Of a DNA stretch of 32,000 nt, positions 1 through 32,000 are shown one piece after another. The translations under genes and the position numbers were made by a program. A model generated the notes under the pieces. That model did not search any database. It saw nothing but the letters and a program-made list of their open reading frames with translations, and was not told the DNA's origin. The first letter of the stretch is position 1, and each line of letters begins with the position of its first letter. Source of the DNA: Candidatus Saccharimonadota bacterium (GTDB lineage Bacteria > Patescibacteriota > Saccharimonadia > Saccharimonadales > UBA4665); the NCBI GenBank assembly GCA_003516025.1, contig CP023991.1:540001-572000 (forward strand). Reading direction: 5' to 3'.

Positions 1-2520
1 GATGAGCACGCTCACAACATCCGTTCCGCGACCCGCATGATTGAAACTGGTGACGTCGCCGTTTGGGACGCCCTCGACACCGTCATTAAGGGTAAGTACG
101 TTCTGTTGAATCGTGCCCCATCCTTGCACCGCCTTTCAATCCAGGCCTTCCAGCCGGTACTTATCGAAGGCCGCGCCATCCAGCTGCACCCACTCGTCTG
201 TAAGGGCTTCAACGCCGACTTCGATGGTGACCAGATGGCCGTCCACCTTCCTTTGAGCGATGATGCTCAGGCAGAGGCCCGCGACATCATGGCTGCTAAC
301 AAGAATCTTCTGAAGCCAGCTGACGGTTCGCCAATTCTGCACGTTGAACAGGACATCGTCCTTGGTTGTTACTACCTCACGTACGACCGCCCTGACACCA
401 ATAAAGTACCTTTCGTATATAGCGACATCAATGAAGCTATTTTGGCACTCGATGCCGGTAGCTTGACGCTCCAGAACCGCATCCGCGTACCATTCCGTGG
501 CGAACGCCGCGAAACAACGCTTGGCCGCCTGCTGTTCAATGAAACCTTCCCGGATGATTTTCCATTCCAGGACGAGCCAATGACCAAGAAGCGTTTGCAG
601 AAAGTACTGGCTGACGCTTACCAGGCTTACGGCCAGGAAGTAACCGCTGAACTCGCCGACAAGTTGAAAGACCTCGGATTTGAATACGCCACAATTTCCG
701 GCCTCTCAATGGGTATGGGTGACTTCCATGCGGTTGAAGGTCTCGACGCCATGCTTGCTACCGGTGATACCCGCGCCAGTGCCATTTCAGAGCAGTTCGA
801 ACAAGGTTTTATTACCGAAGACGAACGATACCGCTTGACCGTCGATAACTGGGCCCGCGTTGAAACGCAGGTACAGGACGCTTTAGCCGAACAGATGAAG
901 GGCCGCGACAGCGCGACTGCTATCGCCATCAACTCTGGTGCCCGTGGTAACATCGGCCAGTTGAAGAACGCCGTTGGTATGCTTGGTGTCCAGTCCGACG
1001 CCTCCGGCCGCGCCATCGAACTTCCAGTCCGCTCCGGCTATGTCAAGGGTCTCAACCCGCTTGAATACTTTACGGGTACCCGTGGTACCCGTAAGGCGCT
1101 CATCGACATCGCCCTTAAAACCGCCGATGCCGGTTACCTGACGCGCCGCCTGGTAGACGTTTCTCAGGATGTCTTTACTATCGACGAAGAAGGCGACTCT
1201 AGCGATCCAGGCTTCGCGATGCTTCGGGCTGACGCTAAAGAGATTGGTGTTGGCTACGGCTCACGCCTGGTTGGCCGCTTTGCTGCCCAAGACGTCTCTA
1301 ACGGAAAAGTAGGTTACCTCAAAAAGGGTGAACGCTTTACTCCAGAAGTAGCTGCCAAGATCGACGCGGACGAGTCTCTCGACGCGGTCCGTATCATGAG
1401 CGCCCTCAGCTGTACCAGCGTCCGTGGAGTTCCACAGAAATCCTACGGTGTCGATCCGGCTACCGGTAACCTGGTTGCCAGCCACCACCCAATCGGTGTC
1501 ATCGCTGCCCAGTCTATCGGTGAGCCTGGTACGCAGTTGTCCCTCGACTCCAAGCACCGTTCCGGTGGTTTCGTCGCCGATGACACTGCGCAGGGTCTGT
1601 CCCGTATCGAGGAACTCTTCGAAGTCCGTACACCAAAGGGTCAGGCTTACCTGACTGACATTGCCGGTACGGCAAACACATGGGAAGAAGGCGACCACTA
1701 CGTGGTTCAGGTTACTGCCCATGATAAAGAAAACATCGAACTCGAAATTGGTGACCGCACGGTCCAGGTCAAGAGTGGTTCCGATGTTGCTATCGGTGAC
1801 GTCATTGCTTCACTCGAAGACGGCGCATCACCACTAATCGCACCAATGGCTGGCAAGGCCGAGGTCAGCGAAAAGACTATCATCATCACACCGGCCCGCA
1901 CCAGCGTGGTCCGCTACGAAATCCCTGGCTTCAAGCAATTGCAAGTCAAGGACGGTGATGAAGTCGAAGCCGGCCAGCGCTTGACTAACGGTTCCATTAA
2001 CCTACAGGACCTTCTGCGTCTCCAGGGTGTTGAGCCAACGCAGCGCTACATCATGAATGAAATCCTGCGTATCTTCGCAGGCCAAGGTCAGATCATTGCT
2101 GATAAGCACCTTGAAATCATCGTTCGCCAGATGTTCAGCCGCGTCCAGATCGAAGATGCTGGCGACAGCGAATTCGTGACCGGTGACGTCGTTTCCAAGC
2201 TGGCTGTAGTTGACGCTAATGAGCGCTTGGCTGCTGATAGCAAAGAACTCGTACAGTTCAACCAGCTGTTGCTTGGTATCACCAAGTCCAGCTTGAGTAC
2301 TGATTCGTTCCTGAGTGCCGCATCCTTCCAGGACACCACCCGCGTACTGATCGGTGCCGCGACCTCCGGCCGCGTCGACCGCCTGTACGGCTTGAAGGAA
2401 AACGTCATCTTGGGTCGCAAGATCCCAGTTGGCACTGGTTACGGCCAGGTCGCAGTCGCTGAAGATGCCATTGAAGACCAGCTCGCCGAGCCGCTTTCAA
2501 GCATCACTGACGCGCTGTAA
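1..2520 (+). CDS. rpoC: DNA-directed RNA polymerase subunit beta' (C-terminal ~840 aa; 5' end lies outside the window)
   Basis: Frame 1 is open from base 1. It contains the [12 protein letters not shown] catalytic motif and conserved beta' C-terminal blocks, ends in TAA at 2518-2520, and sits directly upstream of rpsL-rpsG-fusA-tuf. Confidence 0.95.
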
Positions 2521-2542
2521 GCCTCGCCAAGGCTGGGTAAAC

Positions 2543-7400: not shown

Positions 7401-7811
7401 ATGGGTATGACAGAAAGTAGTAATTTCACGGACTATTATGAAGTTCTTGGCGTAAAGCCGACATCTGAAGTAGCCGAAATTCGCCGTGCCTATATAGCTT
7501 TGGCTAAGCAGCAGCATCCTGATGCCGGCGGTTCAATGGAAGCCATGCAACAGTTGAACATCGCGTACCGGACATTGACGAGCGATAGCGCGAAAACAGC
7601 TTATGATATGCTGCACAACTTCCATACCGGTAGCACTGCACCGGCTGACTACCGCTATAGTGATGGACGTGAGGTACATGGTGTCACCGATATGTCGGAT
7701 GATGAAATCGACGCTTTTCTTGATGACTTATTCACTGAGTATCGGAGCGGCCCGCCAAAGTCTAAGCAAAGTATTCGTGACTGGTTCAAGAACATCGTAA
7801 AAAAGATGTAA
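7401..7811 (+). CDS. J-domain (DnaJ N-terminal domain) protein, 136 aa, with an uncharacterised C-terminal half
   Basis: The N-terminus DYYEVLGV...IRRAYIALAKQQHPD carries the HPD tripeptide of J domains. There is no Gly/Phe or zinc-finger region, so it is not a full DnaJ. Confidence 0.8.
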   Translation: MGMTESSNFTDYYEVLGVKPTSEVAEIRRAYIALAKQQHPDAGGSMEAMQQLNIAYRTLTSDSAKTAYDMLHNFHTGSTAPADYRYSDGREVHGVTDMSDDEIDAFLDDLFTEYRSGPPKSKQSIRDWFKNIVKKM

Positions 7812-7841
7812 CCTCAAGTACTTTAGTTATCTCAAAACACC

Positions 7842-7850
7842 TGGTATAGT
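7842..7850 (+). promoter_or_regulatory. Putative extended -10 TGgTATAGT placed for a leaderless transcript of the 114-aa ORF
   Basis: The ATG at 7857 is 7 nt after the hexamer. No SD. Confidence 0.35.
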
Positions 7851-7856
7851 CTTTGA

Positions 7857-8201
7857 ATGAACACGCCTACTCCGGATTATCCGCAACAACTCTTTCCTCA
7901 TTCCATGCTTCCGGTCAATACTACGCTTATGGCTCAGTTGGCCGTAAAGTTCAGCCGGGTAACTGGCGGCGACTATCACGCCTATCTTATTAGTACCCCT
8001 GAGAACCGTGATCCTCGGTTTTTGATTAAACCAACTTGTCAGATCGATGCGATAGCCCGAGAATATAAAGAGGAACAAGCTGACCGAGGCGTAGAAGTTG
8101 TTATTAAGCCTTTGCCGGACGAGGCCGTGCAGGACATCTACGCCCAGTGTCTCGACGAATTAGACGTTATGATGCGAAGTCTGCGCCTAAACACGCAGTA
8201 G
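7857..8201 (+). CDS. Hypothetical protein (114 aa)
   Basis: ORF directly downstream of the J-domain gene. No family recognised. Coding status rests on ORF length and position only. Confidence 0.5.
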   Translation: MNTPTPDYPQQLFPHSMLPVNTTLMAQLAVKFSRVTGGDYHAYLISTPENRDPRFLIKPTCQIDAIAREYKEEQADRGVEVVIKPLPDEAVQDIYAQCLDELDVMMRSLRLNTQ

Positions 8202-8203
8202 AC

Positions 8204-8231
8204 TTTCCAATGAACGTTTAATATGTTAAAG
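8204..8231 (+). promoter_or_regulatory. Putative rpsJ promoter: -35 TTTCCA, 16-nt spacer, extended -10 TGtTAAAGT
   Basis: Read from the sequence. It would give a ~100-nt leader containing small hairpins (TGACT/AGTCA 8252-8264, TGTAGG/CCTACA 8269-8288). Confidence 0.3.
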
Positions 8232-8338
8232 TACATCTACTTACTAATTGTGCTGACTAAAAGTCATTTGTAGGCACTGAAACCTACAGAAGATGTTACA
8301 GCGCCATAACCGTCCAGACGGACAAAGGAACATTATTA

Positions 8339-8668
8339 ATGGCTGAAGCTCCTAAAGATGCTAAGCAAAAAATTCGTATTCGCCTGAAGGCATATGACCA
8401 TAAGGTTATTGATCAGGCCGCTAAGCAGATCGTCGATACCGCACTGCGTACCGGCGCGTCACTAGCCGGCCCCATCCCTCTGCCAACCCGCCGCAGCACG
8501 TTTACGGTTATCAAAAGCCCGCACGTCTACAAAAAAGGTCGCGAGCAGTTCGAAATGCGCGTTCATAAGCGCCTGATCGACGTTTTTGAGCCAACGCCAA
8601 AAACAATCGACAGTCTGATGAACCTCAGCCTGCCTGCTGGTTGCGACGTCGAAATCAAGATGTCCTAA
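8339..8668 (+). CDS. rpsJ: 30S ribosomal protein S10
   Basis: 109 aa with [16 protein letters not shown] and an S10 family core. Confidence 0.96.
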
Positions 8669-8693
8669 GTGCCCCCCCAAGCCTATAAAAAAC

Positions 8694-8721
8694 CGCTCTC
8701 CGTAAAAAAAGGGCGTTTTTT
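8694..8721 (+). terminator. Weak candidate terminator after rpsJ
   Basis: 5-bp stem CGCTC/GGGCG (one G-U) with a 12-nt A-rich loop, followed by TTTTTT. The stem is marginal. Confidence 0.3.
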
Positions 8722-8817
8722 ATGTGCATATACTTAAGTCGTGTAAGTAATTTCATATACCAGTAACCGACGGAAGCCTACACTAACTAATACACTAATA
8801 ATGTATAGGAGACCGAA

Positions 8818-9186
8818 ATGGCACACACATCAGACAGACAAGCACCGAATACATTAGGTCTTATTCTTGTCGCAGCCGCTGCAGGCGCAGTAGCAGGAAT
8901 GCTGTTCGCACCAAAGCGCGGAACAGAAATGCGCGAAGATCTTAAAGGCCGGGTAGGCGACCTTAAATCTAAAGCGCAAACTAAAGTAGACGATACGAAG
9001 ACTGCCGTAGGCGAAGGCGCTGACGCCGCCCGCACTAAAGCACACGATGTAGCAGATAAAGCACGCTCGACTGTTACGAAAACCGCTGATTCAGCTAAAG
9101 ATAATGCCGATAAGCTGGCTGACGCGACAAAAGAGGCTAGCGACCAAGCGGCTGACGAAGCGAAGCGCCGCTCCAAGCGTGCCTAA
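8818..9186 (+). CDS. YtxH-like protein (N-terminal membrane helix plus K/D/A-rich helical tail), 122 aa
   Basis: GLILVAAAAGAVAGMLFAPKRGTEMREDLK matches the YtxH signature (hydrophobic helix then FAPKxGxExR). SD AGGAG lies 7 nt upstream. Confidence 0.75.
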   Translation: MAHTSDRQAPNTLGLILVAAAAGAVAGMLFAPKRGTEMREDLKGRVGDLKSKAQTKVDDTKTAVGEGADAARTKAHDVADKARSTVTKTADSAKDNADKLADATKEASDQAADEAKRRSKRA

Positions 9187-9433: not shown

Positions 9434-10048
9434 ATGAAAGCTCTCATTACTAGGAAGGTTGGCATGACCAGTACTATCGCAGAAGATGGTGTCGTGACTG
9501 CTGTAACCTTGCTTTCCGCTAGTCCTTGCGTTATTACGCAAGTGAAGACCGTCGACACTGATGGATACACTGCTATCCAGCTCGGTGCCGAAGAAGCAAA
9601 GCATGCCGGCAAGGCTGCTGAAGGTCATTTTAAAGCTGCAGGCGTCACGCCTAAAGTCGTACGTGAGTTCCGCGTCGATGAACTCAGTGAAGACCTGAAG
9701 GTTGGCGCGACTATCGCGGCAGATACTTTTGAAGCCGGTGACGAAGTAGATGTTACAGGCACTACTAAAGGTAAGGGTTGGGCCGGTACTATCCGCCGCC
9801 ACAACTTCCACCGTCAACGCAAAACCCACGGTGGTAAAGGTAACACTCGTAAAGTCGGTTCTATCGGCTCTATGTACCCTCAGCGTATTTTCCCAGGTAA
9901 GAAAATGGCTGGCCAGCTCGGTGGTGACCAGGTTACCGTTAAAAACCTAAAGATCGCTTTTGTTGATACAGAGAATAATCTCATCGGGGTTACTGGTGCC
10001 GTTCCTGGTCCACGTAAAGGCATTATCATTTTGAAAGGAGCTAAATAA
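9434..10048 (+). CDS. rplC: 50S ribosomal protein L3
   Basis: 204 aa starting MKALITRKVGMTS, with TKGKGWAG. Confidence 0.96.
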   Translation: MKALITRKVGMTSTIAEDGVVTAVTLLSASPCVITQVKTVDTDGYTAIQLGAEEAKHAGKAAEGHFKAAGVTPKVVREFRVDELSEDLKVGATIAADTFEAGDEVDVTGTTKGKGWAGTIRRHNFHRQRKTHGGKGNTRKVGSIGSMYPQRIFPGKKMAGQLGGDQVTVKNLKIAFVDTENNLIGVTGAVPGPRKGIIILKGAK

Positions 10049-10710
10049 TGGCGACTCCTACATTCACAAGCGCTGGCGCCAAGGCTACTAAGCCAGCTCA
10101 GCTCGATCAAGCCGTATTTGGTGTAGCTCCTGAAAACCATGAGCTGCTCAAGCGCGTCTACACTGCCTACCTCGCTAACGGCCGCACCAACAATGCTGTC
10201 ACTCTTAAGCGTGGTGAAGTCAGTGGTGGTGGCCGCAAGCCTTGGAAGCAAAAGGGAACCGGCCGAGCACGTTTCGGTTCAACCCGCGTGCCTATTTGGC
10301 GCGGTGGTGGTGTTGCTTTTGGTCCTACCGGGCAGGAAAACTACACACTTAACGTCAATGTTAAAGCTAAGCGTTTAGCTATCCGTCAGGCACTCAGCCT
10401 GGCCGCAAACGAAGAAAAGATTGTCATTATCGAAGACTTCGCGGTTAAGGATGGTAAAACATCAGCCGCAGCGGCATTGCTCGCTAAGGTAGGCGCCAGC
10501 CGTAAGACGCTGGTGGTCGTTGATCACAAATCAGTGGAACTCACCCGCGCCACAGCAAACCTCGGCGACGTTAAGTTAGTCCAGGCTACCTACCTGAATG
10601 TCTTTGATCTTATGAACGCTGACACTATCGTAGTAACCAGCGCCGCTTTGTCTGCTATTAGCGAATGGCTTGGTGCCGAGAGCACTACCGCAAAAGAGGA
10701 GACTAAATAA
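10048..10710 (+). CDS. rplD: 50S ribosomal protein L4
   Basis: 220 aa with GGGRKPWKQKGTGRAR. TAATG junction with rplC. Confidence 0.96.
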   Translation: MATPTFTSAGAKATKPAQLDQAVFGVAPENHELLKRVYTAYLANGRTNNAVTLKRGEVSGGGRKPWKQKGTGRARFGSTRVPIWRGGGVAFGPTGQENYTLNVNVKAKRLAIRQALSLAANEEKIVIIEDFAVKDGKTSAAAALLAKVGASRKTLVVVDHKSVELTRATANLGDVKLVQATYLNVFDLMNADTIVVTSAALSAISEWLGAESTTAKEETK

Positions 10711-11971: not shown

Positions 11972-11974
11972 GAC

Positions 11975-12244: not shown

Positions 12245-12247
12245 ACC

Positions 12248-12637: not shown

Positions 12638-12638
12638 T

Positions 12639-19834: not shown

Positions 19835-19847
19835 TCATCGAAAACAC

Positions 19848-19877: not shown

Positions 19878-19894
19878 CAAACCTTGTTATATTT

Positions 19895-20116: not shown

Positions 20117-20193
20117 TCGGCATTATTGCTTCTAGGACGCACATTATTATCAATTAAGCAGTGAGTCACCCTCCGGAAAGGAGAATGATCCGC

Positions 20194-20310: not shown

Positions 20311-20312
20311 TT

Positions 20313-20693: not shown

Positions 20694-20702
20694 GAATAAC
20701 TT

Positions 20703-21101: not shown

Positions 21102-21103
21102 CC

Positions 21104-21724: not shown

Positions 21725-21740
21725 GGGAGGATGGACCTAA

Positions 21741-22691
21741 ATGGCAAATCATATTCACACACCAGGACTCGTTGCAGTTGAGGATCACAGCGATAACAAC
21801 GCAACCTTTACTGTCGAGCCACTGCACAACGGTTATGGCATGACCCTTGGTAACTCCCTTCGCCGCGTACTGCTTTCCAGCATTGCCGGAGCTGCGATTA
21901 CCAGCTTCAAGATCGAAGGTGTTACTCACGAGTTTACTGCCGTACCTGGCGTTAAAGAAGATGTCGTTGACATCATGCTTAATCTCAAGGGAATTCGTTT
22001 CCGCGTGTACGGCAATGACGTACAGAATCTGCGTATCGTCAAAAAGGGTGCCGGCGCTGTAACAGCCAAGGACATCCAGACGAACGCTGACGTAGAAGTC
22101 GTTAATCCTGACCACGTCATCGCTACGGTTGACGATGATAAGGCGACCTTTACCATGGACCTGACTGTCGAAGTCGGCCGCGGATACCGCACTATCGAAG
22201 AGGGTACTGCCCGCAAGGCAAGCGACTATGTCGCCCTTGATGCCGTATTCACGCCTGTGTTGCGCGTTCGGTACAAAGTTGAAAACACTCGTGTCGGCCA
22301 GGTTACTGATCTCGATAAGTTGCTTTTAACTATTGAAACAGACGGATCAATCACGCCACGCGACGCTTTCGAAGAAGCAGCCGCCATACTGGTTAACCAG
22401 TACACCGCGCTTGCCGGCAAGACCCGCGTAGCCGCTCCAGAAGCCGCCGCCGCACCAGCCGTTAGCGCGGGTAGCAATGACGAAGGTTCGAGCGACGAGG
22501 CCGGCGCGCTTAACACCAGCGTCGAAGACATGAACCTCAGCGCCCGTACCTATAACGCGCTTGTTAACAACGACATTCATTCTGTTCGCGACCTGCTGGC
22601 CTTAAGTGACGCAGAACTGCGTGATCTCAAAGGTTTCGGCAGCAAAGCTCTCGACGAAGTGAAGGAAAAATTAGCGGAGTTGGAGCTCTAA
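21741..22691 (+). CDS. rpoA: DNA-directed RNA polymerase subunit alpha
   Basis: 316 aa. NTD (EPLHNGYGMTLGNSLRRVLLSS), an Ala/Ser-rich linker and a CTD (LSARTYNALVNNDIHSVRDL). SD GGGAGG. Confidence 0.96.
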   Translation: MANHIHTPGLVAVEDHSDNNATFTVEPLHNGYGMTLGNSLRRVLLSSIAGAAITSFKIEGVTHEFTAVPGVKEDVVDIMLNLKGIRFRVYGNDVQNLRIVKKGAGAVTAKDIQTNADVEVVNPDHVIATVDDDKATFTMDLTVEVGRGYRTIEEGTARKASDYVALDAVFTPVLRVRYKVENTRVGQVTDLDKLLLTIETDGSITPRDAFEEAAAILVNQYTALAGKTRVAAPEAAAAPAVSAGSNDEGSSDEAGALNTSVEDMNLSARTYNALVNNDIHSVRDLLALSDAELRDLKGFGSKALDEVKEKLAELEL

Positions 22692-22692
22692 T

Positions 22693-23133
22693 ATGCATCG
22701 TCACGGATATAAAGGTCGGAAGTTCAATCGCGAGACTGATCAGCGCCGCGCCCTCATGAAGGGCCTGGCTGATTCTCTCGTGAAGTATGAAACGATCGAA
22801 ACTACATTACCAAAAGCTAAGGAAGTTGTTCCTTACATCGAAAAACTGATTACTAAGGCTAAGAAGGGCGACCTTCATAACCGCCGTCAGATCATTGCTA
22901 AACTGCAGACTATCGCCAGCGCACACAAGCTCGTTGACGAAATCGCGCCAAAGCTCGGCGCTCGCGACAGCGGCCATGTACGGATTGAAAAAACCCGTAC
23001 CCGCCGCGGTGATAATGCCCAGCTGGCACGTGTCAGCTTCGTTGATGACCTGAAAGAAGCTCCGGTCGCCAAAGCTGCGACCCCAGTTAAGGTTGCGGCC
23101 AAGCCTGCGGTCGACACAAAGGAGACTAACTAA
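22693..23133 (+). CDS. rplQ: 50S ribosomal protein L17
   Basis: 146 aa starting MHRHGYKGRKFNR. Confidence 0.95.
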   Translation: MHRHGYKGRKFNRETDQRRALMKGLADSLVKYETIETTLPKAKEVVPYIEKLITKAKKGDLHNRRQIIAKLQTIASAHKLVDEIAPKLGARDSGHVRIEKTRTRRGDNAQLARVSFVDDLKEAPVAKAATPVKVAAKPAVDTKETN

Positions 23134-23594
23134 TGAAGGCTAACACCAAGACTTATAGCGCTAAGCCAACTGACGTTGTCCGTAAGTGGTACGTCATCGA
23201 CGCCAGCGAGACTTCACTCGGCCGTGTAGCTACCAAAGCTGCCACCTTACTGACCGGCAAGGGCAAGCCAATGTTCACCCAGCACATTGATACCGGCGAC
23301 TTCGTTGTCATTATCAATGCTGGCGCCGTTAAGGTTACCGGTAAAAAAGCGACCGACAAAATGTACTACAAGCACAGCGGTTTCCCAGGCGGTCTCCGTG
23401 AGCGTACTTTTACCGAGCAGCTGGAAAAGGATCCGGAATCCGTCATTACATTGGCTATCCGCGGCATGCTTCCGGTTAATAAGCTCCGCGACGAGCGTTT
23501 AGCTCGCCTGAAGGTCTATGTTGGTTCTGAGCACAAGCACGAAGCACAAAAGCCGGTAGCTATTTCAGTCGTTGATAAGAAGGAAAGTAAATAA
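23133..23594 (+). CDS. rplM: 50S ribosomal protein L13
   Basis: 153 aa with KWYVIDASETSLGR. TAATG junction with rplQ. Confidence 0.95.
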   Translation: MKANTKTYSAKPTDVVRKWYVIDASETSLGRVATKAATLLTGKGKPMFTQHIDTGDFVVIINAGAVKVTGKKATDKMYYKHSGFPGGLRERTFTEQLEKDPESVITLAIRGMLPVNKLRDERLARLKVYVGSEHKHEAQKPVAISVVDKKESK

Positions 23595-23596
23595 TT

Positions 23597-23992
23597 ATGG
23601 CAGACAACTATTTCTACGCCTTAGGTCGCCGTAAAAGCGCCACAGCCCGCGTCCGCCTACAAAGCGGCAAGGGAACTATTATGGTCAATGAAAAGCCCGC
23701 GGAAGAATACTTTGCCGACAGCAAGTACCTTTTGAATAAGCTCTCTCAGCCGTTTACCGTATTGGGTCAGGAAAACAAGTACGCCATTTCCGCGCACGTT
23801 TCCGGTGGTGGCCATGACGGCCAAATCGAGGCTATCCGCCTTGGTATCGCCAAAGCACTGGCTACCATGAACGAAGACCTCAAGAGTACGCTTAAGCGCG
23901 CCGACCTGCTTGGCCGCGACTCACGCGAAAAAGAACGTAAGAAGTTCGGCTTGAAGGGTGCTCGTAAGCAGCGCCAGTTCACTAAGCGCTAG
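23597..23992 (+). CDS. rpsI: 30S ribosomal protein S9
   Basis: 131 aa with YFYALGRRKSATARV and C-terminal ARKQRQFTKR. Confidence 0.96.
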   Translation: MADNYFYALGRRKSATARVRLQSGKGTIMVNEKPAEEYFADSKYLLNKLSQPFTVLGQENKYAISAHVSGGGHDGQIEAIRLGIAKALATMNEDLKSTLKRADLLGRDSREKERKKFGLKGARKQRQFTKR

Positions 23993-24322: not shown

Positions 24323-24517
24323 GTGGCTGCGACATACGAACAACAAATTATAGATCAACAGTTACTGGCCGAGGCCCGCCAGCGTGTCGGCGCGTTTCTA
24401 CGTGACATCGACCAGCGCAACGGTATCTTTGTCGTGGAGCAGGTTCGAGACGTCGGAGCACGGCCGGCGGAAGTGGAGACACGGGCACTGGGCAGTCTGG
24501 CCGCGCTTAACGCCTAA
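24323..24517 (+). CDS. Hypothetical small protein (64 aa, GTG start)
   Basis: Strong SD AAGGAG (24311-24316) 6 nt before the GTG. The sequence looks helical. No family confidently recognised. Confidence 0.5.
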   Translation: MAATYEQQIIDQQLLAEARQRVGAFLRDIDQRNGIFVVEQVRDVGARPAEVETRALGSLAALNA

Positions 24518-24520
24518 CCC

Positions 24521-24529
24521 TGTTATAAT
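24521..24529 (+). promoter_or_regulatory. Putative extended -10 TGtTATAAT immediately upstream of trpS
   Basis: The ATG at 24540 is 11 nt after the hexamer. No SD. Confidence 0.35.
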
Positions 24530-24539
24530 AGAAATAATC

Positions 24540-25589
24540 ATGACTACACAGACCCACCAGAGCACACCCGTTATTCTTACCGGCCTTCGCGCCAACAACG
24601 ACTTGCATATCGGCAATTACCTAGGGGCGCTTATGCCACTGGTCGAGATGGCCACAGTTAAATCAAGCGAGTATCAAATTAATATCTTCGTGCCAGACCT
24701 GCACAGCTTTACGACACCGATTGACCACTCGAAGCTGCAAGCGCAGGTCACAAACAATCTTCGCCTGTATGTGGCCGCTGGCCTGCCGCTCAATAACAGT
24801 AACCTGCACATATACCGCCAAAGTTATATTCCGGCCCACAGCGAATTAACATGGATCCTCGACTGCTTTACCGGTTTTGGTGAAATGAATCGGATGACAC
24901 AGTTTAAAGACAAGTCGTCCAAACTTGGTGATGACCGGATAAGCGTCGGTCTCTTCAATTATCCGGTGCTAATGGCAGCTGACATTCTGCTATACGGTGC
25001 GACCTATGTACCGGTTGGGGATGATCAGACACAGCACCTGGAGTTCGCCCGCGATATCGCAGCACGCATGAACAATCAGTTTGGCGAGCTGTTTATTGTT
25101 CCGAAGCCCGTTAAAGAACAGCACGCCTTTTTTGGTAAGGAACAAGGTTTGCGCATCCGCGACCTGGTAGAACCGGCTAAGAAGATGAGTAAATCCGACG
25201 AAACCGGCAAGGGCGTTATTTTTATGAACGACAGCCCTGAGGCCGCTCGGAAGAAAATCATGTCAGCTACGACCGATAGTCTGGGTGTAGTCGCCTTTGA
25301 TTTGCAGAACCAGCCCGGCGTCTCTAACCTATTGAGCCTGCTGGCCCTTTTCGCGAACCGTCCGCTCGACGAAGTTATTGCCGAGTATCAGGGCCAGACA
25401 CAGTATGGACCGCTTAAGACGGCTGTGGCTGACGCGGTGGTCGCTTTTCTGACTACTTTCCAGGAAGCGTTGGCTAACGTGGACAACGCGCAAATTCTGG
25501 CTAAATTGGCGGATAGCGAAGCCGCCATGCGAGATCAGGCAGACGTTACACTACTGCGTGTTCAGCGCGCGGTCGGGCTACGGGGCTAA
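24540..25589 (+). CDS. trpS: Tryptophan--tRNA ligase
   Basis: 349 aa from ATG 24540, with a HIGH-type motif (LHIGNYLGA), KMSKS (KKMSKSD) and the TrpRS-typical GDDQTQHLE. The track start 24384 overlaps the 64-aa ORF and adds a non-homologous N-terminus. Confidence 0.92.
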   Translation: MTTQTHQSTPVILTGLRANNDLHIGNYLGALMPLVEMATVKSSEYQINIFVPDLHSFTTPIDHSKLQAQVTNNLRLYVAAGLPLNNSNLHIYRQSYIPAHSELTWILDCFTGFGEMNRMTQFKDKSSKLGDDRISVGLFNYPVLMAADILLYGATYVPVGDDQTQHLEFARDIAARMNNQFGELFIVPKPVKEQHAFFGKEQGLRIRDLVEPAKKMSKSDETGKGVIFMNDSPEAARKKIMSATTDSLGVVAFDLQNQPGVSNLLSLLALFANRPLDEVIAEYQGQTQYGPLKTAVADAVVAFLTTFQEALANVDNAQILAKLADSEAAMRDQADVTLLRVQRAVGLRG

Positions 25590-25594
25590 CACGT

Positions 25595-26458
25595 ATGGCT
25601 AATCTTGAAATGAGCCGCGCCCAGCGCTTAGACCAGCGTGTCATTGAACAAATGCCTACTTTAACGCGAAGTTACGCATCCAAATTAATCGAGACGGGCA
25701 AAGTTACCGTAAACGGTGAAGTCGTGACAAAATCGGGCTATAAAATGCGCGCTGGCGACGAAGTAGCCGTAGATCATGACGACGAGCTGTTCAGGCAGAT
25801 TCCGGTCATAGAGTTACCGGTAGTATACGAAGACGAAGACTGTGTGGTCATCATCAAACCAGTGGGCCTGCTGACACATAGCAAAGGAGCCTTTAATCCC
25901 GAGGCTACGGTGGCCACGTGGCTACGGGGCCGTTTAAGAAGCATGGAAGGCGAGCGGGCCGGCATCGTACATCGTCTAGACCGGGCGACCAGCGGTGTTA
26001 TGATTTGTGCCAAAACCCCTGATGCTCACTCGTGGCTGCAAAAACAGTTCGCACAGCGCCGTACCAAAAAAAACTATGCCGCTATTATCAGCGGCCACCT
26101 GAACCAGCCCGAAGCTGTCATCGACATGCCCATAGAGCGTAACCCTAAAAAACCGCAAACATTTCGAGTTGGTGCCAACGGCAAATCGGCCGTGACACAG
26201 TACCATACGCTTCAGATGATTGACGGCTACAGCCTGCTGGAACTGAAGCCAACCACCGGCCGTACGCATCAGCTCCGGGTGCATATGGCAAATCTGGGAC
26301 ATCCGATAGTCGGCGACGTATTGTATGACGGTCCACAGGCTGACCGCTTGTTTCTGCATGCCCATCATCTGGAGCTGACACTACCTAACCGCGAACGTAC
26401 AGTCTTTACTGCTCCATTGCCGCCTGAGTTCGCAGAATTCATGCAGCACCATGGCTAG
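25595..26458 (+). CDS. RluA/RluD-family 23S rRNA pseudouridine synthase with an N-terminal S4 domain
   Basis: 287 aa with catalytic HRLDRATSGV and GRTHQLRVH motifs. Confidence 0.88.
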   Translation: MANLEMSRAQRLDQRVIEQMPTLTRSYASKLIETGKVTVNGEVVTKSGYKMRAGDEVAVDHDDELFRQIPVIELPVVYEDEDCVVIIKPVGLLTHSKGAFNPEATVATWLRGRLRSMEGERAGIVHRLDRATSGVMICAKTPDAHSWLQKQFAQRRTKKNYAAIISGHLNQPEAVIDMPIERNPKKPQTFRVGANGKSAVTQYHTLQMIDGYSLLELKPTTGRTHQLRVHMANLGHPIVGDVLYDGPQADRLFLHAHHLELTLPNRERTVFTAPLPPEFAEFMQHHG

Positions 26459-27323
26459 TGATATCCTTTTGCACGATGCGACCGCCGCCGCGATCGAAAA
26501 CGTATTGTCTCAACCGCCGCACGCCCTGCTTATAACCGGACAAACTGGAACCGGCAAAATGACCGTGGCGCGCCACATAGCCCGCCAGCTTTTACATTTA
26601 CCCGCCGCCGAACTCGACAGTTATCCTTACCTGCGCCTCATATCACCTATAGACGGCAAGGCGATCGCCATTGAAACAGTGCGCGAGCTGCAGCCGTTCT
26701 TAACACTCAAGGTCCCCGGCCGGCAGGCAGTCAGCCGTTTGGTCGTGATCGAACAGGCGCATTTTATGACAACCGAAGCCCAAAACTCGCTGCTTAAAAC
26801 ACTCGAGGAGCCACCGCTTAACACGGTCATCATTCTAACCGCTTCGAGTCCGGATGCTATGCTCGTGACCATCCAATCACGAGTCCGGCAGCTTCCAGTC
26901 ACAACTCCGGCAATAAGCCAGACCCGGGAATATTTTACGACACAAGGGTTTTCAGGAGGCGCTATTGATAAGACCATGCTTATGAGTGGTGGACTACCTG
27001 GTTTGACACATGCGTTACTGACTGAGCCGGAAAATCATCCGCTATACGCCGCTACCGTCCAGGCCAGGGAAATACTGCGAGCCAGCAACTTCGAACGCCT
27101 GGCATTAGTAGACGGCTTAAGCAAGCAGAAACAACTGTGTAGCGATACACTGTTTATCCTGATGCAGATGGCCCGCATGTCACTGATGCGCCAAACCGGC
27201 GAACAAACCAAGGCGGCCGAACGCTGGCAATCAGTACTCACAACCGCGTATGGAGCCGATCAGGCCTTACGGGCTAATACCCAGGCCAAGCTCGTACTGA
27301 CTGACCTTATGCTTAACGTATAA
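26451..27323 (+). CDS. holB: DNA polymerase III subunit delta' (clamp-loader AAA+ subunit)
   Basis: 290 aa with ITGQTGTGK, NSLLKTLEEPP and TIQSRV motifs. 8-nt overlap with the upstream gene. Confidence 0.75.
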   Translation: MASDILLHDATAAAIENVLSQPPHALLITGQTGTGKMTVARHIARQLLHLPAAELDSYPYLRLISPIDGKAIAIETVRELQPFLTLKVPGRQAVSRLVVIEQAHFMTTEAQNSLLKTLEEPPLNTVIILTASSPDAMLVTIQSRVRQLPVTTPAISQTREYFTTQGFSGGAIDKTMLMSGGLPGLTHALLTEPENHPLYAATVQAREILRASNFERLALVDGLSKQKQLCSDTLFILMQMARMSLMRQTGEQTKAAERWQSVLTTAYGADQALRANTQAKLVLTDLMLNV

Positions 27324-27328
27324 TCTTC

Positions 27329-27337
27329 TGATATAAT
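27329..27337 (+). promoter_or_regulatory. Putative extended -10 TGaTATAAT upstream of the TPR gene
   Basis: The ATG at 27347 is 10 nt after the hexamer. No SD. Confidence 0.35.
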
Positions 27338-27346
27338 AAGCCTACA

Positions 27347-28000
27347 ATGTTTGAACTTCTCCTCGTAGCCGGTTTTGGTGCTTTGGCGTTCCATAACGCC
27401 GCTATCCGTGAAGATGAATTTGGTATGGTATCACGTAAAGTGGGTGACCGGTTAGGTAAATTGTGGGACATCGCCCATCAGGGCATGCGCGAGAACCGTT
27501 TTTTGCGAGCTGAAAAAGCGTTGCTCACCATACTAAAAATCGATGAAAAGAACGCGGCCGCTTATAACCGCCTTGGCATCCTATATGCCAAGCAGAAGGA
27601 ATACCGTGATGCCATCGACTGTTTTGAGATCGCTTCCAGCATCGAAGCGACTGCGTCGAGCTTACATAACCTGGGGCTCATATACTATGAAACCGAAAAC
27701 TACGAAAAGGCAGCTATCGCTTTCGAACAGGCCCTTAAGCTGGAAGATAAGCTGGCAGCCCGCCATGTCGCCTACGCTAAAGTCCAGGAAAAGCTTGGTA
27801 ACACCCGTATGATGATTCAAGAGCTGCAGAAGGCCTCGGAGCTTGAGCCGAATCAGGAAACATACTCTTTACTGCACAAAGCTTATACGGCTAACGGTAT
27901 GGCTACTGAAGCCGATGAAATCGCCGATAAACTCAAGAAATTAATCGTTCCAGCTGGCCGCCCGCGCCGGATTGTCCGACCCCGTCGCGTAGTTGTGTAA
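27347..28000 (+). CDS. Membrane-anchored tetratricopeptide (TPR) repeat protein with an Arg-rich C-terminal tail
   Basis: 217 aa. An N-terminal hydrophobic helix (FELLLVAGFGALAF), TPR-like repeats (AAAYNRLGILYAKQKEYRDAIDCFE, LHNLGLIYYETENYEKAAIAFEQAL) and the tail GRPRRIVRPRRVVV. Confidence 0.75.
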   Translation: MFELLLVAGFGALAFHNAAIREDEFGMVSRKVGDRLGKLWDIAHQGMRENRFLRAEKALLTILKIDEKNAAAYNRLGILYAKQKEYRDAIDCFEIASSIEATASSLHNLGLIYYETENYEKAAIAFEQALKLEDKLAARHVAYAKVQEKLGNTRMMIQELQKASELEPNQETYSLLHKAYTANGMATEADEIADKLKKLIVPAGRPRRIVRPRRVVV

Positions 28001-28050: not shown

Positions 28051-28127
28051 GCCGCCTTAGCTCAGCTGGTTAGAGCATCAGTTTTGTAAACTGAGGGTCG
28101 TCGGTTCGAATCCGACAGGCGGCTCCA
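28051..28127 (+). tRNA. tRNA-Thr (anticodon TGT), CCA encoded
   Basis: Hand-folded cloverleaf: acceptor GCCGCCT/AGGCGGC, anticodon stem TCAGT/ACTGA with loop TTTGTAA, T arm GTCGG-TTCGAAT-CCGAC. Confidence 0.92.
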
Positions 28128-28138
28128 AGATAACATAT

Positions 28139-28223
28139 GCAGGGTTAGTGAAGCGGTCAAACACGGGTGACTGTAAATCATCTGGCTCAGCCTTCGGGGG
28201 TTCGAATCCCTCACCCTGCACCA
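28139..28223 (+). tRNA. tRNA-Tyr (anticodon GTA), class II long variable arm, CCA encoded
   Basis: Acceptor GCAGGGT/ACCCTGC, anticodon loop CTGTAAA, variable arm TGGCTCAGCCTTC, T loop TTCGAAT. Confidence 0.9.
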
Positions 28224-28298
<75 letters not shown>

Positions 28299-28388: not shown

Positions 28389-28856
28389 TTAGTTGCCGAG
28401 CGGAAAGACTTTATAAGCCAGTTGGACCTGGTTTTGTCCGCCGTCCATACCATCCCACTTATTGGTCAGGTTAAAGACATTGTTGGTCGAATCATACGAT
28501 ATCGTGACATCATAAAGATCAGTATCGCCCATATCTTTGCATGTGGAGTCAAAGGTAGCATTGTTGGAGTTTACACGCTGATTGGTAGTCGTGTTCATGC
28601 AAAAATACTGCGGAGAGGTGCTAAAAATAGGATCGGACGTATTCTTAGCCTTTACCGCGACTGAACGCACTTGTTCAAGTTGTCCCTGCAATAACTGCAG
28701 CGCTTCACCGCGCTCCTGGCTATCACGCACCGCCAGGGTACTTTTTTGAGTCACCGTGAAAGCGCCGGCCAACACCGAGCTGACAATAGCGATGGCTATG
28801 AGCACTTCGACAATGGTATCACCCTGATCGTTCAGTTTTATTGCTAGTCGCTTCAT
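28389..28856 (-). CDS. Type IV pilin / pseudopilin-like protein with a prepilin-type N-terminal cleavage-methylation signal
   Basis: 155 aa starting MKRLAIKLNDQG|DTIVEVLIAIAIVSSVLAGAF: a short basic leader ending in Gly, Glu at +5, then a hydrophobic helix. Confidence 0.8.
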   Translation of the reverse strand: MKRLAIKLNDQGDTIVEVLIAIAIVSSVLAGAFTVTQKSTLAVRDSQERGEALQLLQGQLEQVRSVAVKAKNTSDPIFSTSPQYFCMNTTTNQRVNSNNATFDSTCKDMGDTDLYDVTISYDSTNNVFNLTNKWDGMDGGQNQVQLAYKVFPLGN

Positions 28857-28884
28857 TGCGCCGTATACACCCTTACTTTCCCAT

Positions 28885-28893
28885 ATATTACCA
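28885..28893 (-). promoter_or_regulatory. Putative extended -10 (TGgTAATAT on the minus strand) for the pilin-like gene
   Basis: Read from the reverse complement, about 30 nt upstream of the ATG. Confidence 0.3.
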
Positions 28894-28936
28894 CAAGCGT
28901 AATGAAGAACAAAGCCAGTGTTGATTCTTCGCAGAC

Positions 28937-28965
28937 TTGCGCTGCGGGCTTATCTCTGTTAAACT
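28937..28965 (+). promoter_or_regulatory. Putative rpmG promoter: -35 TTGCGC, 17-nt spacer, extended -10 TGtTAAACT
   Basis: Read from the sequence. It is divergent from the pilin promoter. Confidence 0.3.
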
Positions 28966-29017
28966 AGCTTAAAGTCTATTACAAATAAGAAATTTTGAGG
29001 ATTAAAGGACTAATACC

Positions 29018-29218
29018 GTGGCTAAAAAAGGTGACAAACGAAAAATTGTAGGTCTTGTGAGCGAAGAATCTGGCGAACGTATTTATTACACGTCTAAAAA
29101 CACGCAAAATACCACAGAAAAACTGGCACTGCGCAAGTACAGCCCAAAACTCCGCAAGCACGTTGTCTTTACCGAGACTAAGAAGAACCTCGGACGCAAC
29201 GAAGCGCCAAAGCGCTAA
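29018..29218 (+). CDS. rpmG: 50S ribosomal protein L33, cysteine-free (C-minus) form, GTG start
   Basis: 66 aa with [47 protein letters not shown], which parallels the E. coli-type L33 lacking the CxxC pairs. AAAGGA lies 8 nt upstream. Confidence 0.9.
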
Positions 29219-29331: not shown

Positions 29332-31278
29332 CTACTTATCGTAGTAATCCAGTAATGTATTAATGAGTTCAGCGTGGCTCCATACAAGCGGTGCTACGCC
29401 CAGCGGACTGCCGTCTTCCGGGTCGAATTGCTCGCTTAAGACGCCACTCGGCTGTTGGCGGGCCAGCGCCCAATCAATCAGCTCGCGGGCCTCATCGTTA
29501 CGGTGGGCGCTAATGTAATACTGGGCGAGCCACAAGGTACCGACAATCCAAGGGTTGCCGCCGAATTCAGGCTTGCTGAGGAAGTAGTCGTCACCGAAGT
29601 AACGTATAACGCCGCCGATCGGGCCCTTTTTATATATGTCCTGTTCAACCTTTTCAACGGTTTTCTTCATGCGCTCATCGTTGAGGGGCAGCTTGGCATA
29701 CATGAACGGGCCGTACATATTGGCAATGTCCATGCTGTTATCAAGCTGGAGCTCGTCGTTTTCAAGTAAGAAACTCTTGCGGAAATAACCATCAGGGTGC
29801 ACCAGCGTACCGAGATGGGCACGAATTGAATCTGCCGCGCGCTGCCAGGCAACGGCATCGCTGGGCTGTTCGACCACCTCTGCCAGTTTAATAGCAGCCT
29901 CCAGGCCGGCTATAACCGTACAAACTGTGTAAGTGAATGTCGCGAAGCGCTGTTCCCATAAATCGTAACTAGCATGTGGCAGGCCGGTTTCCTGATCAAT
30001 GAATGACGTCAGGAAGTTGGCACAGGGCACAATAAAGGTGTGGTACATGTTTTGGATGTAGACTTCGTCGCCGCTGGCTTCATACAGCTCATTGAGCATA
30101 AACAGCATACAGGCGGTCTCGTCTTCCTGAATCGCCAACTCTTTTGAGCGGTTATGCACTAATGGATGCCAGGTGCTGCCGACAGCGCGGTCAGGCTGGT
30201 ATTTATGCAGCATGTAGCCATCCGGATGCATAACATCACGGGCGAAGAAGAAGAACTGCCGGGCTTCATCAAAGTGGCCGGTACGGATAAGCGGCCATAA
30301 GGCGTAGGCCGCGTCGCGGGGCCAGCAATAGCAGTAGTAATCGCGGCCGAAGTTAAAGATACTCGAATCGCCACTGGCTAGGATTGAACCACGACTGTCG
30401 CAGTGTGCTTTAATAATCATCAGGCTGCGCTGGAGGGCCAGGCGTTCCGGCCCCGGCATGGCCGTGAGCTGTTTATTGTTTGGATTGAGCCATTCCTGCC
30501 ATGACAGACGCGTTTGGTGCAGCCTGTCATCAACGGCGCCCGGTTTTTGCAACTGGGCATGCATTTCGCCAGCATCATTTTGGCTGCTAGCCGCTACGAT
30601 CCAGTAGTAGGTCGCTTTGGAAGATCGGGCCGGTACCTGCATGACAAAGCGAATAACACTGTCAACGCCGCCGTGCTCGACCGGGTTATCAGACAGTTCA
30701 CCGTCTTCGGCGTCCATAAAGGTTCCAGCCTTGCCTTCGATGCCGTAATTGCCTATGGCATACTGGTCGAAAGATGTTCCGTCTTCCTGCTGGCCGCCAA
30801 TAGCCAAACAGTAGCGCCCCTTGTAATCCAAGATGTAATTAGCATCCGGGACATACAGGGCAGTGTCGCTGCGACCGGTCCGTGATATCTGGAACACCTG
30901 ATGCATAAACAGGCGGATTTCACGGTCCTGGTCACGATCGTTAGTTACAGTAATTTTTCGCAGAAAAATATTCTGCATATTATCAATGGTATCCTGCAAA
31001 TGGAGGCTGATACCTAAACCGTCATGCTTCATTTTCACGGTACTGATCAGCGCGTCCTGTTCGAATAGTACGGACGTCTCCCAGCTGTCATCATCGGTCC
31101 AGCTGAATGTCCCATCAACATACAGGCCGATTTTATGATGCAGGCTGCGTGAGGTCGTTAAGTTCTCTAAACCCACATATGGATAGTAAAAGTCGTGTAC
31201 TAATCCGTTTTCGTTGAGGCCAATAAACATCTGTCCATTACTGAGTACAACTGGTCGCCCCATCCTAAACCTTGACAC
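29332..31278 (-). CDS. Glycoside hydrolase family 15 protein (glucoamylase/glucodextranase-like)
   Basis: 648 aa with CWPRDAAY and LSEQFDPEDGSPLGVAPLVWSHAELI, motifs typical of the GH15 (alpha/alpha)6 catalytic domain. Confidence 0.85.
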   Translation of the reverse strand: MSRFRMGRPVVLSNGQMFIGLNENGLVHDFYYPYVGLENLTTSRSLHHKIGLYVDGTFSWTDDDSWETSVLFEQDALISTVKMKHDGLGISLHLQDTIDNMQNIFLRKITVTNDRDQDREIRLFMHQVFQISRTGRSDTALYVPDANYILDYKGRYCLAIGGQQEDGTSFDQYAIGNYGIEGKAGTFMDAEDGELSDNPVEHGGVDSVIRFVMQVPARSSKATYYWIVAASSQNDAGEMHAQLQKPGAVDDRLHQTRLSWQEWLNPNNKQLTAMPGPERLALQRSLMIIKAHCDSRGSILASGDSSIFNFGRDYYCYCWPRDAAYALWPLIRTGHFDEARQFFFFARDVMHPDGYMLHKYQPDRAVGSTWHPLVHNRSKELAIQEDETACMLFMLNELYEASGDEVYIQNMYHTFIVPCANFLTSFIDQETGLPHASYDLWEQRFATFTYTVCTVIAGLEAAIKLAEVVEQPSDAVAWQRAADSIRAHLGTLVHPDGYFRKSFLLENDELQLDNSMDIANMYGPFMYAKLPLNDERMKKTVEKVEQDIYKKGPIGGVIRYFGDDYFLSKPEFGGNPWIVGTLWLAQYYISAHRNDEARELIDWALARQQPSGVLSEQFDPEDGSPLGVAPLVWSHAELINTLLDYYDK

Positions 31279-32000
31279 CTTTCTCGCTTAATCGGAATTT
31301 TAAATCGTGATATGAATTCATAAAGTTAATAAATGCCTCGTACGGTGTTTCGTATGGACTGAAGTAGGCGTGAATATCTCCGTCGCTGAAGTATTTGGTA
31401 CACATATAGTAAAAATGGTCGGAAGTTTGCAGCCGGCGCCAGTCTTCGATCAGCTCCAGGTCGTGCGTGGCGATGATTTGCTCCTGCAGGTCATACAAAG
31501 CATGGATGGCCTCCTGTTGCATGGCATTTCCCAGCCAAGCTGACAGATCGCGCTCCGTATCGGCCCACGTTACGGTATGCGGCATATCGACGGTATCTTT
31601 CGGCTCCAAAGCGTCAATTACTTCGCTGACCGTCATAAAAGTGTTTCCATCGGTTTTCAGCCATTCCTGTGGCAGATGCTCCAGGAAGCCAAAAATACCC
31701 GATTCATCCCATTGGTGTTCACCAAACGTTTCGTAGTCCATGAACAGGTTGAAGTTAGTGGCTTCCGGCTCGGAATTGAGCCAGTGCGAGAACTTGTCAG
31801 CCGTTAATGGCCATTCTTCCCAGGCCTGGTTGCCGAAGCGGAAGGCGATGTCGTCGCTCAACTTATAATTTTTCATCAGCAGGCGGATGTTGTTCGTGTA
31901 AGTCGGGCGGTATACGAAGTTCGGGCTGCGCCAGCCGAGTACCGGATCCCAGCCTTCGGCTAAAATACCCTTATAGCCGGCTTTATCGGCCCAGAATGCT
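31265..32000 (-). CDS. Glycoside hydrolase family 57 protein (alpha-amylase/alpha-glucanotransferase-like), C-terminal part; N-terminus lies outside the window
   Basis: The frame stays open from the first in-window Met (31876) to the window edge (hand-translated AFWADKAGYKGILAEGWDPVLGWRSPNFVYRPTYTNNIRLLMKNYK...). It carries a DYETFGEHQW catalytic-region-like motif and overlaps the GH15 start by 14 nt. Confidence 0.7.
   Translation of the reverse strand, partial: AFWADKAGYKGILAEGWDPVLGWRSPNFVYRPTYTNNIRLLMKNYKLSDDIAFRFGNQAWEEWPLTADKFSHWLNSEPEATNFNLFMDYETFGEHQWDESGIFGFLEHLPQEWLKTDGNTFMTVSEVIDALEPKDTVDMPHTVTWADTERDLSAWLGNAMQQEAIHALYDLQEQIIATHDLELIEDWRRLQTSDHFYYMCTKYFSDGDIHAYFSPYETPYEAFINFMNSYHDLKFRLSEKGVKV

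What the first reader, a model, noticed from the sequence alone, without database searches (positions are those of the whole stretch)
1..32000. TGA is completely absent from reading frames: 0 of 48 stop codons and 0 of ~9,800 sense positions, while TAG is common
I read every stop codon in the window. Of 48 CDS ends, 34 are TAA, 14 are TAG and none is TGA. TAG is normally the rarest bacterial stop, and at about 50% GC TGA would be expected to be frequent. The non-ribosomal genes (trpS, the rluD-like gene, holB, the TPR, pilin, GH15 and GH57 genes, and the hypotheticals) follow the same rule. All 11 overlapping gene junctions are TAATG (rpsL/rpsG, rplC/rplD, rplD/rplW, rplW/rplB, rpsC/rplP, rpmC/rpsQ, rpsQ/rplN, rplN/rplX, rplX/rplE, rplE/rpsN, rplQ/rplM). 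The otherwise ubiquitous ATGA overlap never occurs. Every gene is also intact under the standard code, so TGA is not used as a sense codon here either. TGA triplets are plentiful out of frame. The pattern fits a codon that is unassigned or strongly avoided, such as an RF2-poor or RF2-less lineage, or an intermediate on the path to the UGA reassignments known in other CPR groups and in Mollicutes. High-expression bias towards TAA explains part of this, but not the 14 TAG stops.
Basis: partly seen in the sequence, partly recalled or inferred. Interest (0 to 1): 0.62.

Follow-up and report, generated by a model that had tools for sequence, protein, structure and literature searches.

The report
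TGA-free window, ordinary genetic code
No gene in this ribosomal-protein-rich window ends in TGA, but the rest of this small Saccharibacteria genome uses TGA as a normal, less favoured stop codon and keeps the factor that reads it, so the genetic code is standard.

Summary
I count about 46 gene ends (32 TAA, 14 TAG, 0 TGA), and 11 stop/start junctions read TAATG.

The strong interpretation fails. The closed 1.0-Mb genome (50.7% GC) has 128 TGA stops among 1,011 called genes (12.7%; TAA 55%, TAG 32%). It has 37 ATGA overlaps, an intact canonical prfB (RF2, with SPF and GGQ motifs) and no tRNA with a UCA anticodon. Coding density is lower if TGA is read as sense. Universal enzymes (GatA, GatB, QueA, FolD) end at TGA exactly where their family profiles end.

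The window lies in the genome's longest TGA-free run, 64 genes. In this genome, 4.6% of 32-kb windows have no TGA stop. Genes with ribosomal-protein-like codon usage use TGA only 5% of the time. Orthologous ribosomal-protein genes in 34 related Saccharibacteria do use TGA (6.1%).

What remains is a real lineage habit. All 8 sampled Saccharimonadales relatives prefer TAG (26-49%) to TGA (9-24%). This is the reverse of E. coli at the same GC, and the preference is specific to functional stops.

This scan reached the same conclusion earlier on another Saccharimonadales genome. Interest is low.

The parts
1..2520 (+). 3' part of a 1,285-aa gene (the ORF starts 1,337 nt upstream of the window; probably rpoC by its position before rpsL, not tested against any family), stop TAA
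2719..7325 (+). rpsL, rpsG, fusA, tuf; stops TAA, TAG, TAG, TAA; rpsL/rpsG junction is TAATG
7401..9186 (+). DnaJ-domain protein (TAA), hypothetical protein (TAG), rpsJ (TAA), hypothetical protein (TAA)
9434..18199 (+). S10-spc ribosomal protein cluster, rplC to rplO, 19 genes; stops are TAA or TAG only; 9 of the 11 TAATG junctions lie here
18308..23992 (+). secY, infA, rpmJ, rpsM, rpsK, rpsD, rpoA, rplQ, rplM, rpsI; stops are TAA or TAG; rplQ/rplM junction is TAATG
24384..28000 (+). trpS (TAA), rluD-like pseudouridine synthase (TAG), holB-like DNA polymerase III delta' (TAA), TPR protein (TAA)
28051..28298 (+). tRNA-Thr(TGT), tRNA-Tyr(GTA), tRNA-Thr(GGT)
28389..29218 (.). pilin-like protein (- strand, TAA) and rpmG/L33 (+ strand, TAA)
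29332..32000 (-). GH15 glucoamylase-like gene (TAG) and GH57 gene (TAG; runs off the window)

Best explanation
This organism uses the standard bacterial code, with all three stop codons working. The window is TGA-free for two combined reasons. First, the Saccharimonadales lineage uses TGA sparingly (about 13% of stops here) and TAG freely (about 32%). Second, about three quarters of the window's genes belong to the translation and transcription core. Such genes presumably carry high expression, and they favour TAA and avoid TGA most strongly. With about 3.6 TGA stops expected among 46 genes, zero has a chance of roughly 1 in 20 to 1 in 40 per window. That is about one such window per 1-Mb genome, and this window is that one. 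Shown: TGA terminates real conserved genes; RF2 is intact; no UGA-decoding tRNA exists; TGA use falls with codon adaptation; relatives use TGA in the same operon. Inferred: the lineage-wide preference for TAG over TGA comes from selection at the termination step. The likely basis is that RF2 is less abundant or less efficient than RF1, or that UGA is leakier.
For: Genome-wide stop counts are TAA 559, TAG 324, TGA 128 of 1,011 genes, at 89% coding density. The caller was validated on 100 kb of E. coli K-12: 0.64/0.30/0.06 (TAA/TGA/TAG) against 0.63/0.32/0.05 annotated, with 83 of 92 stop positions shared. Outside the window there are 37 ATGA, 5 GTGA and 2 TTGA stop/start overlaps. prfA and prfB are both present and above the curated cut-offs. 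RF2 aligns over its full length to solved RF2 structures with SPF and GGQ conserved. Of 44 tRNAs, none has a UCA anticodon and tRNA-Trp is CCA. Reading TGA as sense lowers coding density from 0.892 to 0.867 and lowers the total coding score. In-frame extensions past TGA are short and score as non-coding. GatB, GatA, QueA, FolD and a histidine kinase end at TGA exactly where their NCBIfam profiles end. TGA falls from 12-18% to 5% in the top codon-adaptation quintile, while TAG stays at 28-36%. In 34 Saccharibacteria loci holding the same operon, 48 of 785 orthologous stops (6.1%) are TGA. Of the 16 loci with at least 27 genes scored, 2 have no TGA. 45 of 974 sliding windows in this genome are TGA-free. 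prfB is present in 41 of 41 genomes of the relatives search (G000 plus 40 relatives), over the curated cut-off in 37.
Against: The TGA-free run of 64 genes is longer than in 98% of shuffles, so pure sampling is not enough and the expression argument is needed. Expression was not measured. Codon adaptation to the window's own ribosomal genes is only a proxy. The 12 non-ribosomal genes at the window's right end are also TGA-free (chance about 0.2). Gene calls come from my own simple caller, not a curated annotation.
Confidence: 0.9

Rival explanations
1. UGA is an unassigned codon, or the lineage has lost RF2, so genes cannot end in TGA.
For: No gene in the window ends in TGA and no junction is ATGA.
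Against: An intact canonical prfB is present in this genome and in all 40 relatives searched. There are 128 TGA stops and 37 ATGA overlaps genome-wide. Conserved enzymes end at TGA. Relatives use TGA in the same ribosomal-protein genes.
Confidence: 0.01
2. UGA is reassigned to an amino acid, as in code 25 (Gly) of Gracilibacteria and Absconditabacteria or code 4 (Trp).
For: The genome belongs to the CPR, where code 25 occurs in other classes (PMC10746230, PMC13462651).
Against: No tRNA has a UCA anticodon and prfB is present. Coding density and coding score drop when TGA is read as sense. Extensions past TGA are short and non-coding. Family profiles end at the TGA.
Confidence: 0.005
3. The absence is pure sampling chance, with no role for gene expression.
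For: 4.6% of 32-kb windows in this genome lack TGA stops. This scan reads many windows, so such cases will be flagged.
Against: At the genome-wide rate of 12.7%, zero of 46 has p of about 0.002. The 64-gene run exceeds 98% of shuffles. TGA use depends on codon adaptation (5% in the top quintile; Mann-Whitney p = 0.0007).
Confidence: 0.08
4. This concerns the genome-level layer and is compatible with the best explanation. The lineage is RF2-poor: RF2 is made at a lower level, or works less well, than RF1. Selection therefore shifts stops from TGA to TAG and TAA. This is a standing state like the 'primed for reassignment' condition proposed for Tapirivita.
For: At true stops TAG:TGA is 2.5. It is 1.1 in intergenic DNA and 1.07 for the next in-frame stop in 3' flanks, so the bias is specific to functional stops. 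TGA is avoided in codon-adapted genes and TAG is not. prfB has a GTG start, no autoregulatory +1 frameshift, and codon adaptation at the 68th percentile, against the 90th for prfA. All 8 sampled Saccharimonadales relatives have TAG above TGA. RF1:RF2 is reported to correlate with TAG:TGA across bacteria (reviewed in PMC9348620). Low UGA use (about 9%) with prfB retained was called 'primed' in PMC13462651.
Against: Ho and Hurst argue that the RF-abundance correlation may be effect rather than cause (PMC9348620). Codon adaptation of two genes is a weak proxy. The RF2 sequence is canonical.
Confidence: 0.35

Closest known systems
Ordinary stop-codon usage bias under code 11 (TAA favoured in highly expressed genes; usage varies by lineage; reviewed by Ho and Hurst 2022, PMC9348620)
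   Same: All three stops are used and both release factors are present. TAA is enriched and TGA depleted in genes with ribosomal-protein-like codon usage.
   Different: The rank of the two minor stops is reversed. TAG is 32% and TGA 13% at 50.7% GC. The general bacterial trend is TAG near 20% with TGA rising with GC (PMC9348620). E. coli at the same GC gives TGA 30% and TAG 6%.
Genetic code 25 (UGA = Gly) of Gracilibacteria and Absconditabacteria
   Same: Same superphylum (CPR/Patescibacteria), small genome, symbiotic lifestyle, and low use of UGA as a stop.
   Different: Here prfB is intact, no tRNA has a UCA anticodon, and no in-frame UGA is needed. UGA terminates 128 genes.
Tapirivita (Eggerthellaceae): UGA still a stop, used at about 9%, prfB retained, called 'primed for reassignment' (Parks et al. 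2026, PMC13462651)
   Same: Reduced genome, prfB retained, and UGA a rare but functional stop (about 13% here; 9-24% in relatives).
   Different: Different phylum. No reassigned sister species is known within Saccharimonadales. The reassigned CPR lineages are in another class, and their relation to this trait was not tested.

Membership tests
UGA-reassigned codes (NCBI tables 4 and 25) | In-frame UGA at conserved sense positions; genes are fragmented under code 11 | tested here: not met
   Coding density is 0.892 under code 11 and 0.867 with TGA as sense. The search tool lists the genome as 98.46% complete. Profiles of GatA, GatB, QueA and FolD end at the TGA.
UGA-reassigned codes (NCBI tables 4 and 25) | Loss of prfB (RF2) | tested here: not met
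   prfB lies at G000:C1:805003-806091 (-) and scores 455 bits on TIGR00020 against a cut-off of 370, with SPF and GGQ motifs.
UGA-reassigned codes (NCBI tables 4 and 25) | A tRNA with anticodon UCA (Trp or Gly) | tested here: not met
   ARAGORN finds 44 tRNAs and none has UCA. Trp is CCA; Gly is UCC, GCC and CCC.
Unassigned UGA / RF2-less lineage | No gene in the genome ends in TGA | tested here: not met
   128 of 1,011 genes end in TGA, and 44 of these are in NTGA overlaps with the next gene's start.
Standard code 11 with stop-usage bias | RF1 and RF2 are both present and TAA, TAG and TGA all terminate conserved genes | tested here: met
Standard code 11 with stop-usage bias | Stop choice depends on expression level | tested here: inconclusive
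   Only a proxy was available. TGA is 5% in the top codon-adaptation quintile against 12-18% elsewhere. No expression data could be obtained.
'Primed for reassignment' state (sensu Parks et al. 2026) | Low UGA stop usage (about 9%) with prfB retained in a reduced symbiont genome | tested here: inconclusive
   TGA is 12.7% here and 9-24% in 8 relatives. The genome is 1.0 Mb. The term has no formal threshold.

The most novel reading that the evidence does not exclude
Saccharimonadales, and perhaps much of the CPR, keep UGA as a legitimate stop that is selected against. The signs are a preference for TAG over TGA that is specific to functional stops, avoidance of TGA but not TAG in codon-adapted genes, and a prfB without its autoregulatory frameshift. 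This would be an RF2-poor condition at mid GC. It could be the standing precondition from which the UGA-to-Gly reassignment arose in other CPR classes.
Probability: 0.25. Interest if true: 0.45.

Novelty: already known. Interest (0 to 1): 0.15.

Why it matters
The report removes a false lead: this is not a new genetic code, an unassigned codon or an RF2-less lineage. The useful residue is a quantified lineage trait. In Saccharimonadales, TAG is used two to three times more often than TGA at about 50% GC, despite a canonical RF2. The bias is confined to functional stops. This bears on the 'TAG paradox' and on how CPR lineages came to reassign UGA, but it needs a proper phylum-wide survey and expression data.

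Tried and rejected
- Code 4/25: rejected on coding density, coding score, tRNA set, prfB and profile ends.
- Leaky TGA with backup stops: no clear excess of tandem stops after TGA (within 6 codons: 0.33 against 0.28 for TAA and 0.25 for TAG; within 2 codons: 0.09 against 0.13 and 0.10).
- TGA stops confined to foreign DNA: only a weak, non-significant enrichment in the highest-GC genes (19% against about 11%; p = 0.10). Core genes also end in TGA.
- Mutational explanation for TAG above TGA: rejected. TGA triplets outnumber TAG genome-wide (31,989 against 19,913), and intergenic TAG:TGA is 1.1.
- prfB +1 frameshift site: none found.
- Korkmaz et al. 2014 (PMC4215218) is not held in the library. 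I cite it only through PMC9348620.
- Literature searches found no paper describing stop-codon usage of Saccharibacteria or the CPR as such.

Full report
**1. The observation**

The window is G000:C1:540001-572000 of a closed 1,005,782-bp genome at 50.7% GC. My ORF caller uses a codon log-odds score with greedy non-overlap selection. It finds 44 gene ends in the window. Adding rpsN (15481-15750) and rpmJ (20194-20310) gives 46 ends: 32 TAA, 14 TAG and 0 TGA.

Its 34 TAA probably includes two very small ORFs. Eleven stop/start junctions read TAATG. The window also contains an 8-nt and a 14-nt overlap, and a 20-nt overlap at rplR/rpsE at the starts I called.

Out-of-frame TGA triplets are abundant, 585 on the + strand and 513 on the - strand.

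**2. The whole genome**

The same caller finds 1,011 genes at 89% coding density, with stops TAA 559 (55%), TAG 324 (32%) and TGA 128 (12.7%).

As a control I ran it on 100 kb of E. coli K-12, which has the same GC. The stop fractions below are in the order TAA/TGA/TAG.

| Source | TAA | TGA | TAG |
|---|---|---|---|
| My caller | 0.64 | 0.30 | 0.06 |
| Annotation | 0.63 | 0.32 | 0.05 |

The caller shared 83 of 92 stop positions with the annotation.

Outside the window, 37 gene pairs overlap by ATGA, 5 by GTGA and 2 by TTGA. There are 27 TAATG junctions in the whole genome, and 11 of them lie in this window.

**3. The termination machinery**

- Two class-I release factors are present.
- One is RF1 (474 bits, cut-off 400), and prmC follows it.
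- The other is RF2 (TIGR00020, 455 bits, cut-off 370).
- RF2 aligns end to end with solved RF2 structures. The SPF stop-recognition tripeptide and the GGQ motif are both conserved.
- RF2 is encoded in one frame with no CTT-TGA frameshift site.
- ARAGORN finds 44 tRNAs. None has a UCA anticodon, and tRNA-Trp is CCA.
- A tmRNA is present.

**4. Is TGA really a stop?**

Reading TGA as sense lowers coding density from 0.892 to 0.867 and lowers the total coding score. In-frame extensions beyond TGA are short (median 15 codons) and score as non-coding, at -0.075 per codon against +0.198 inside genes.

Ten TGA-ending genes were scanned against NCBIfam. Several matches reach the last few positions of the profile at the last few residues before the TGA:

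| Protein | Residues matched | Profile positions matched |
|---|---|---|
| GatB | 4-484 of 486 | 3-479 of 481 |
| GatA | to 472 of 475 | to 462 of 466 |
| QueA | 1-342 of 342 | 1-343 of 346 |
| FolD | 1-269 of 272 | 1-283 of 285 |
| Histidine kinase | to about 681-685 of 692 | to the end of several kinase models |

TGA is a working stop codon in this organism.

**5. Why this window has none**

The window lies in the longest TGA-free run in the genome: 64 genes at 533-588 kb. The shuffled mean for the longest run is 40 genes, and p = 0.017. 45 of 974 sliding 32-kb windows (4.6%) have no TGA stop.

I took the window's translation genes as the reference set for codon adaptation. Among genes outside that set, TGA use is 18, 14, 12, 16 and 5% from the lowest to the highest quintile. 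TAG stays at 28-36% throughout (Mann-Whitney p = 0.0007 for TGA-ending genes against the rest). TGA, but not TAG, is therefore avoided in genes with ribosomal-like codon usage.

As an independent check, I fetched the same operon from 80 genomes. The 34 closest are Candidatus Saccharibacteria or Saccharimonadales MAGs at 52-95% identity, which also confirms the lineage. I read the stop codon of each ortholog.

- Among 785 orthologous stops in the 34 loci, TAA is 75%, TAG 19% and TGA 6.1% (48 cases). These include rpsQ, rplP, rplC, rplX and infA.
- One relative has 8 TGA stops among 30 genes.
- Of the 16 loci with at least 27 genes scored, 2 have no TGA.

With 6.1% for the 34 core genes and 12.7% for the other 12, about 3.6 TGA stops are expected. 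The chance of none is about 0.02, close to the empirical 4.6% of windows. That amounts to roughly one such window per genome of this size.

**6. The residual lineage trait**

I took samples of about 60-100 kb from 8 other Saccharimonadales genomes: one of the same genus, six of the same family and one of the same order.

- TGA is 9-24% and TAG is 26-49%, with TAG above TGA in all 8.
- Pooled over 792 genes, TAA is 49%, TAG 36% and TGA 15%.
- Of 8 other Patescibacteria, 6 have TAG at or above TGA. The exceptions include a 62%-GC genome.
- prfB is found in all 40 relatives and in 59 of 61 genomes of a phylum sample above the cut-off. The two exceptions are fragmentary.

The general bacterial pattern is TAG near 20% regardless of GC, with TGA rising with GC (PMC9348620).

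In this genome the preference is specific to functional stops:

| Context | TAG | TGA | Ratio |
|---|---|---|---|
| True stops | 324 | 128 | 2.5 |
| Intergenic DNA | 3,234 | 2,934 | 1.1 |
| Next in-frame stop in 3' flanks | 78 | 73 | 1.07 |
| Whole genome, all frames | 19,913 | 31,989 | 0.6 |

This pattern points to selection at termination rather than mutation.

There are weak hints of an RF1-over-RF2 imbalance. prfB has a GTG start, no autoregulatory frameshift and codon adaptation at the 68th percentile, against the 90th for prfA.

Parks et al. 2026 (PMC13462651) call about 9% UGA use with prfB retained 'primed for reassignment'. Saccharimonadales sit near that state. I tested no link to the code-25 CPR lineages.

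**7. Comparison and verdict**

None of the three defining features of a UGA reassignment is met: in-frame UGA at conserved sense positions, loss of prfB, and a tRNA with a UCA anticodon. The 'unassigned codon' reading fails on 128 TGA stops. This is code 11 with a lineage-specific stop preference, plus an effect of expression and sampling in one window.

An earlier follow-up in this scan reached the same conclusion on another Saccharimonadales genome (e1-2744651). My result agrees with it and was obtained independently on this genome. I found no paper describing the stop-usage habit of Saccharibacteria, but the kind of phenomenon is well known. Interest is low.

Noticed in passing
G000:C1:805003-806091 (prfB; outside the window): prfB is a single open frame with a GTG start 6 nt after a TATAAT box and no +1 frameshift site. 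All 40 Saccharimonadales relatives also show one unbroken frame. In four other Patescibacteria (G041, G069, G070, G095) the N-terminal ~65 codons lie in a different frame, which is the classical frameshift.
   Followed up: partly
window 3132-23133 (the 11 TAATG junctions): This one window holds 11 of the genome's 27 TAATG stop/start junctions. All 37 ATGA junctions lie elsewhere. In this genome the ribosomal-protein operons use the TAA-based form of translational coupling.
   Followed up: partly
G000:C1:289418-289822 (+): ARAGORN did not report the tmRNA, but the Rfam model RF00023 finds it at 61 bits.
   Followed up: yes
whole genome G000: At true stops TAG:TGA is 2.5. It is 1.1 in intergenic DNA and 1.07 for the next in-frame stop in 3' flanks. 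The bias is therefore confined to functional stops. This differs from the report that 3' flanks mirror canonical stop usage (Ho and Hurst, PMC9348620).
   Followed up: partly
L117-L162 (non-CPR ribosomal-protein operons; mostly Acidobacteriota MAGs): In the same operon of 46 unrelated genomes at 47-67% GC, TAG (32%) also exceeds TGA (19%). TAG above TGA in core translation genes is therefore not peculiar to the CPR.
   Followed up: no
G061 and G073 (phylum sample): Only an RF1-like match is found and no RF2. These are possibly code-25 lineages (Gracilibacteria or Absconditabacteria), but both assemblies are fragmentary (140-150 contigs, 85-88% complete).
   Followed up: no
window 7401-9186: A small DnaJ-domain protein (7401-7811) and two hypothetical genes (7857-8201, 8818-9186) lie around rpsJ, between tuf and rplC. 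Several core proteins are unusually long: rplW 141 aa, rpsE 210 aa, secY 508 aa.
   Followed up: no
G000:C1:135718-137268 and 267250-268800: Two ORFs of 516 aa that both end in TGA have similar N-termini (MNSVVYVRVSTDEQ... and ...VVYVRVSTTQQ...) that look like serine recombinases. I did not test this against any family. They may belong to mobile elements.
   Followed up: no
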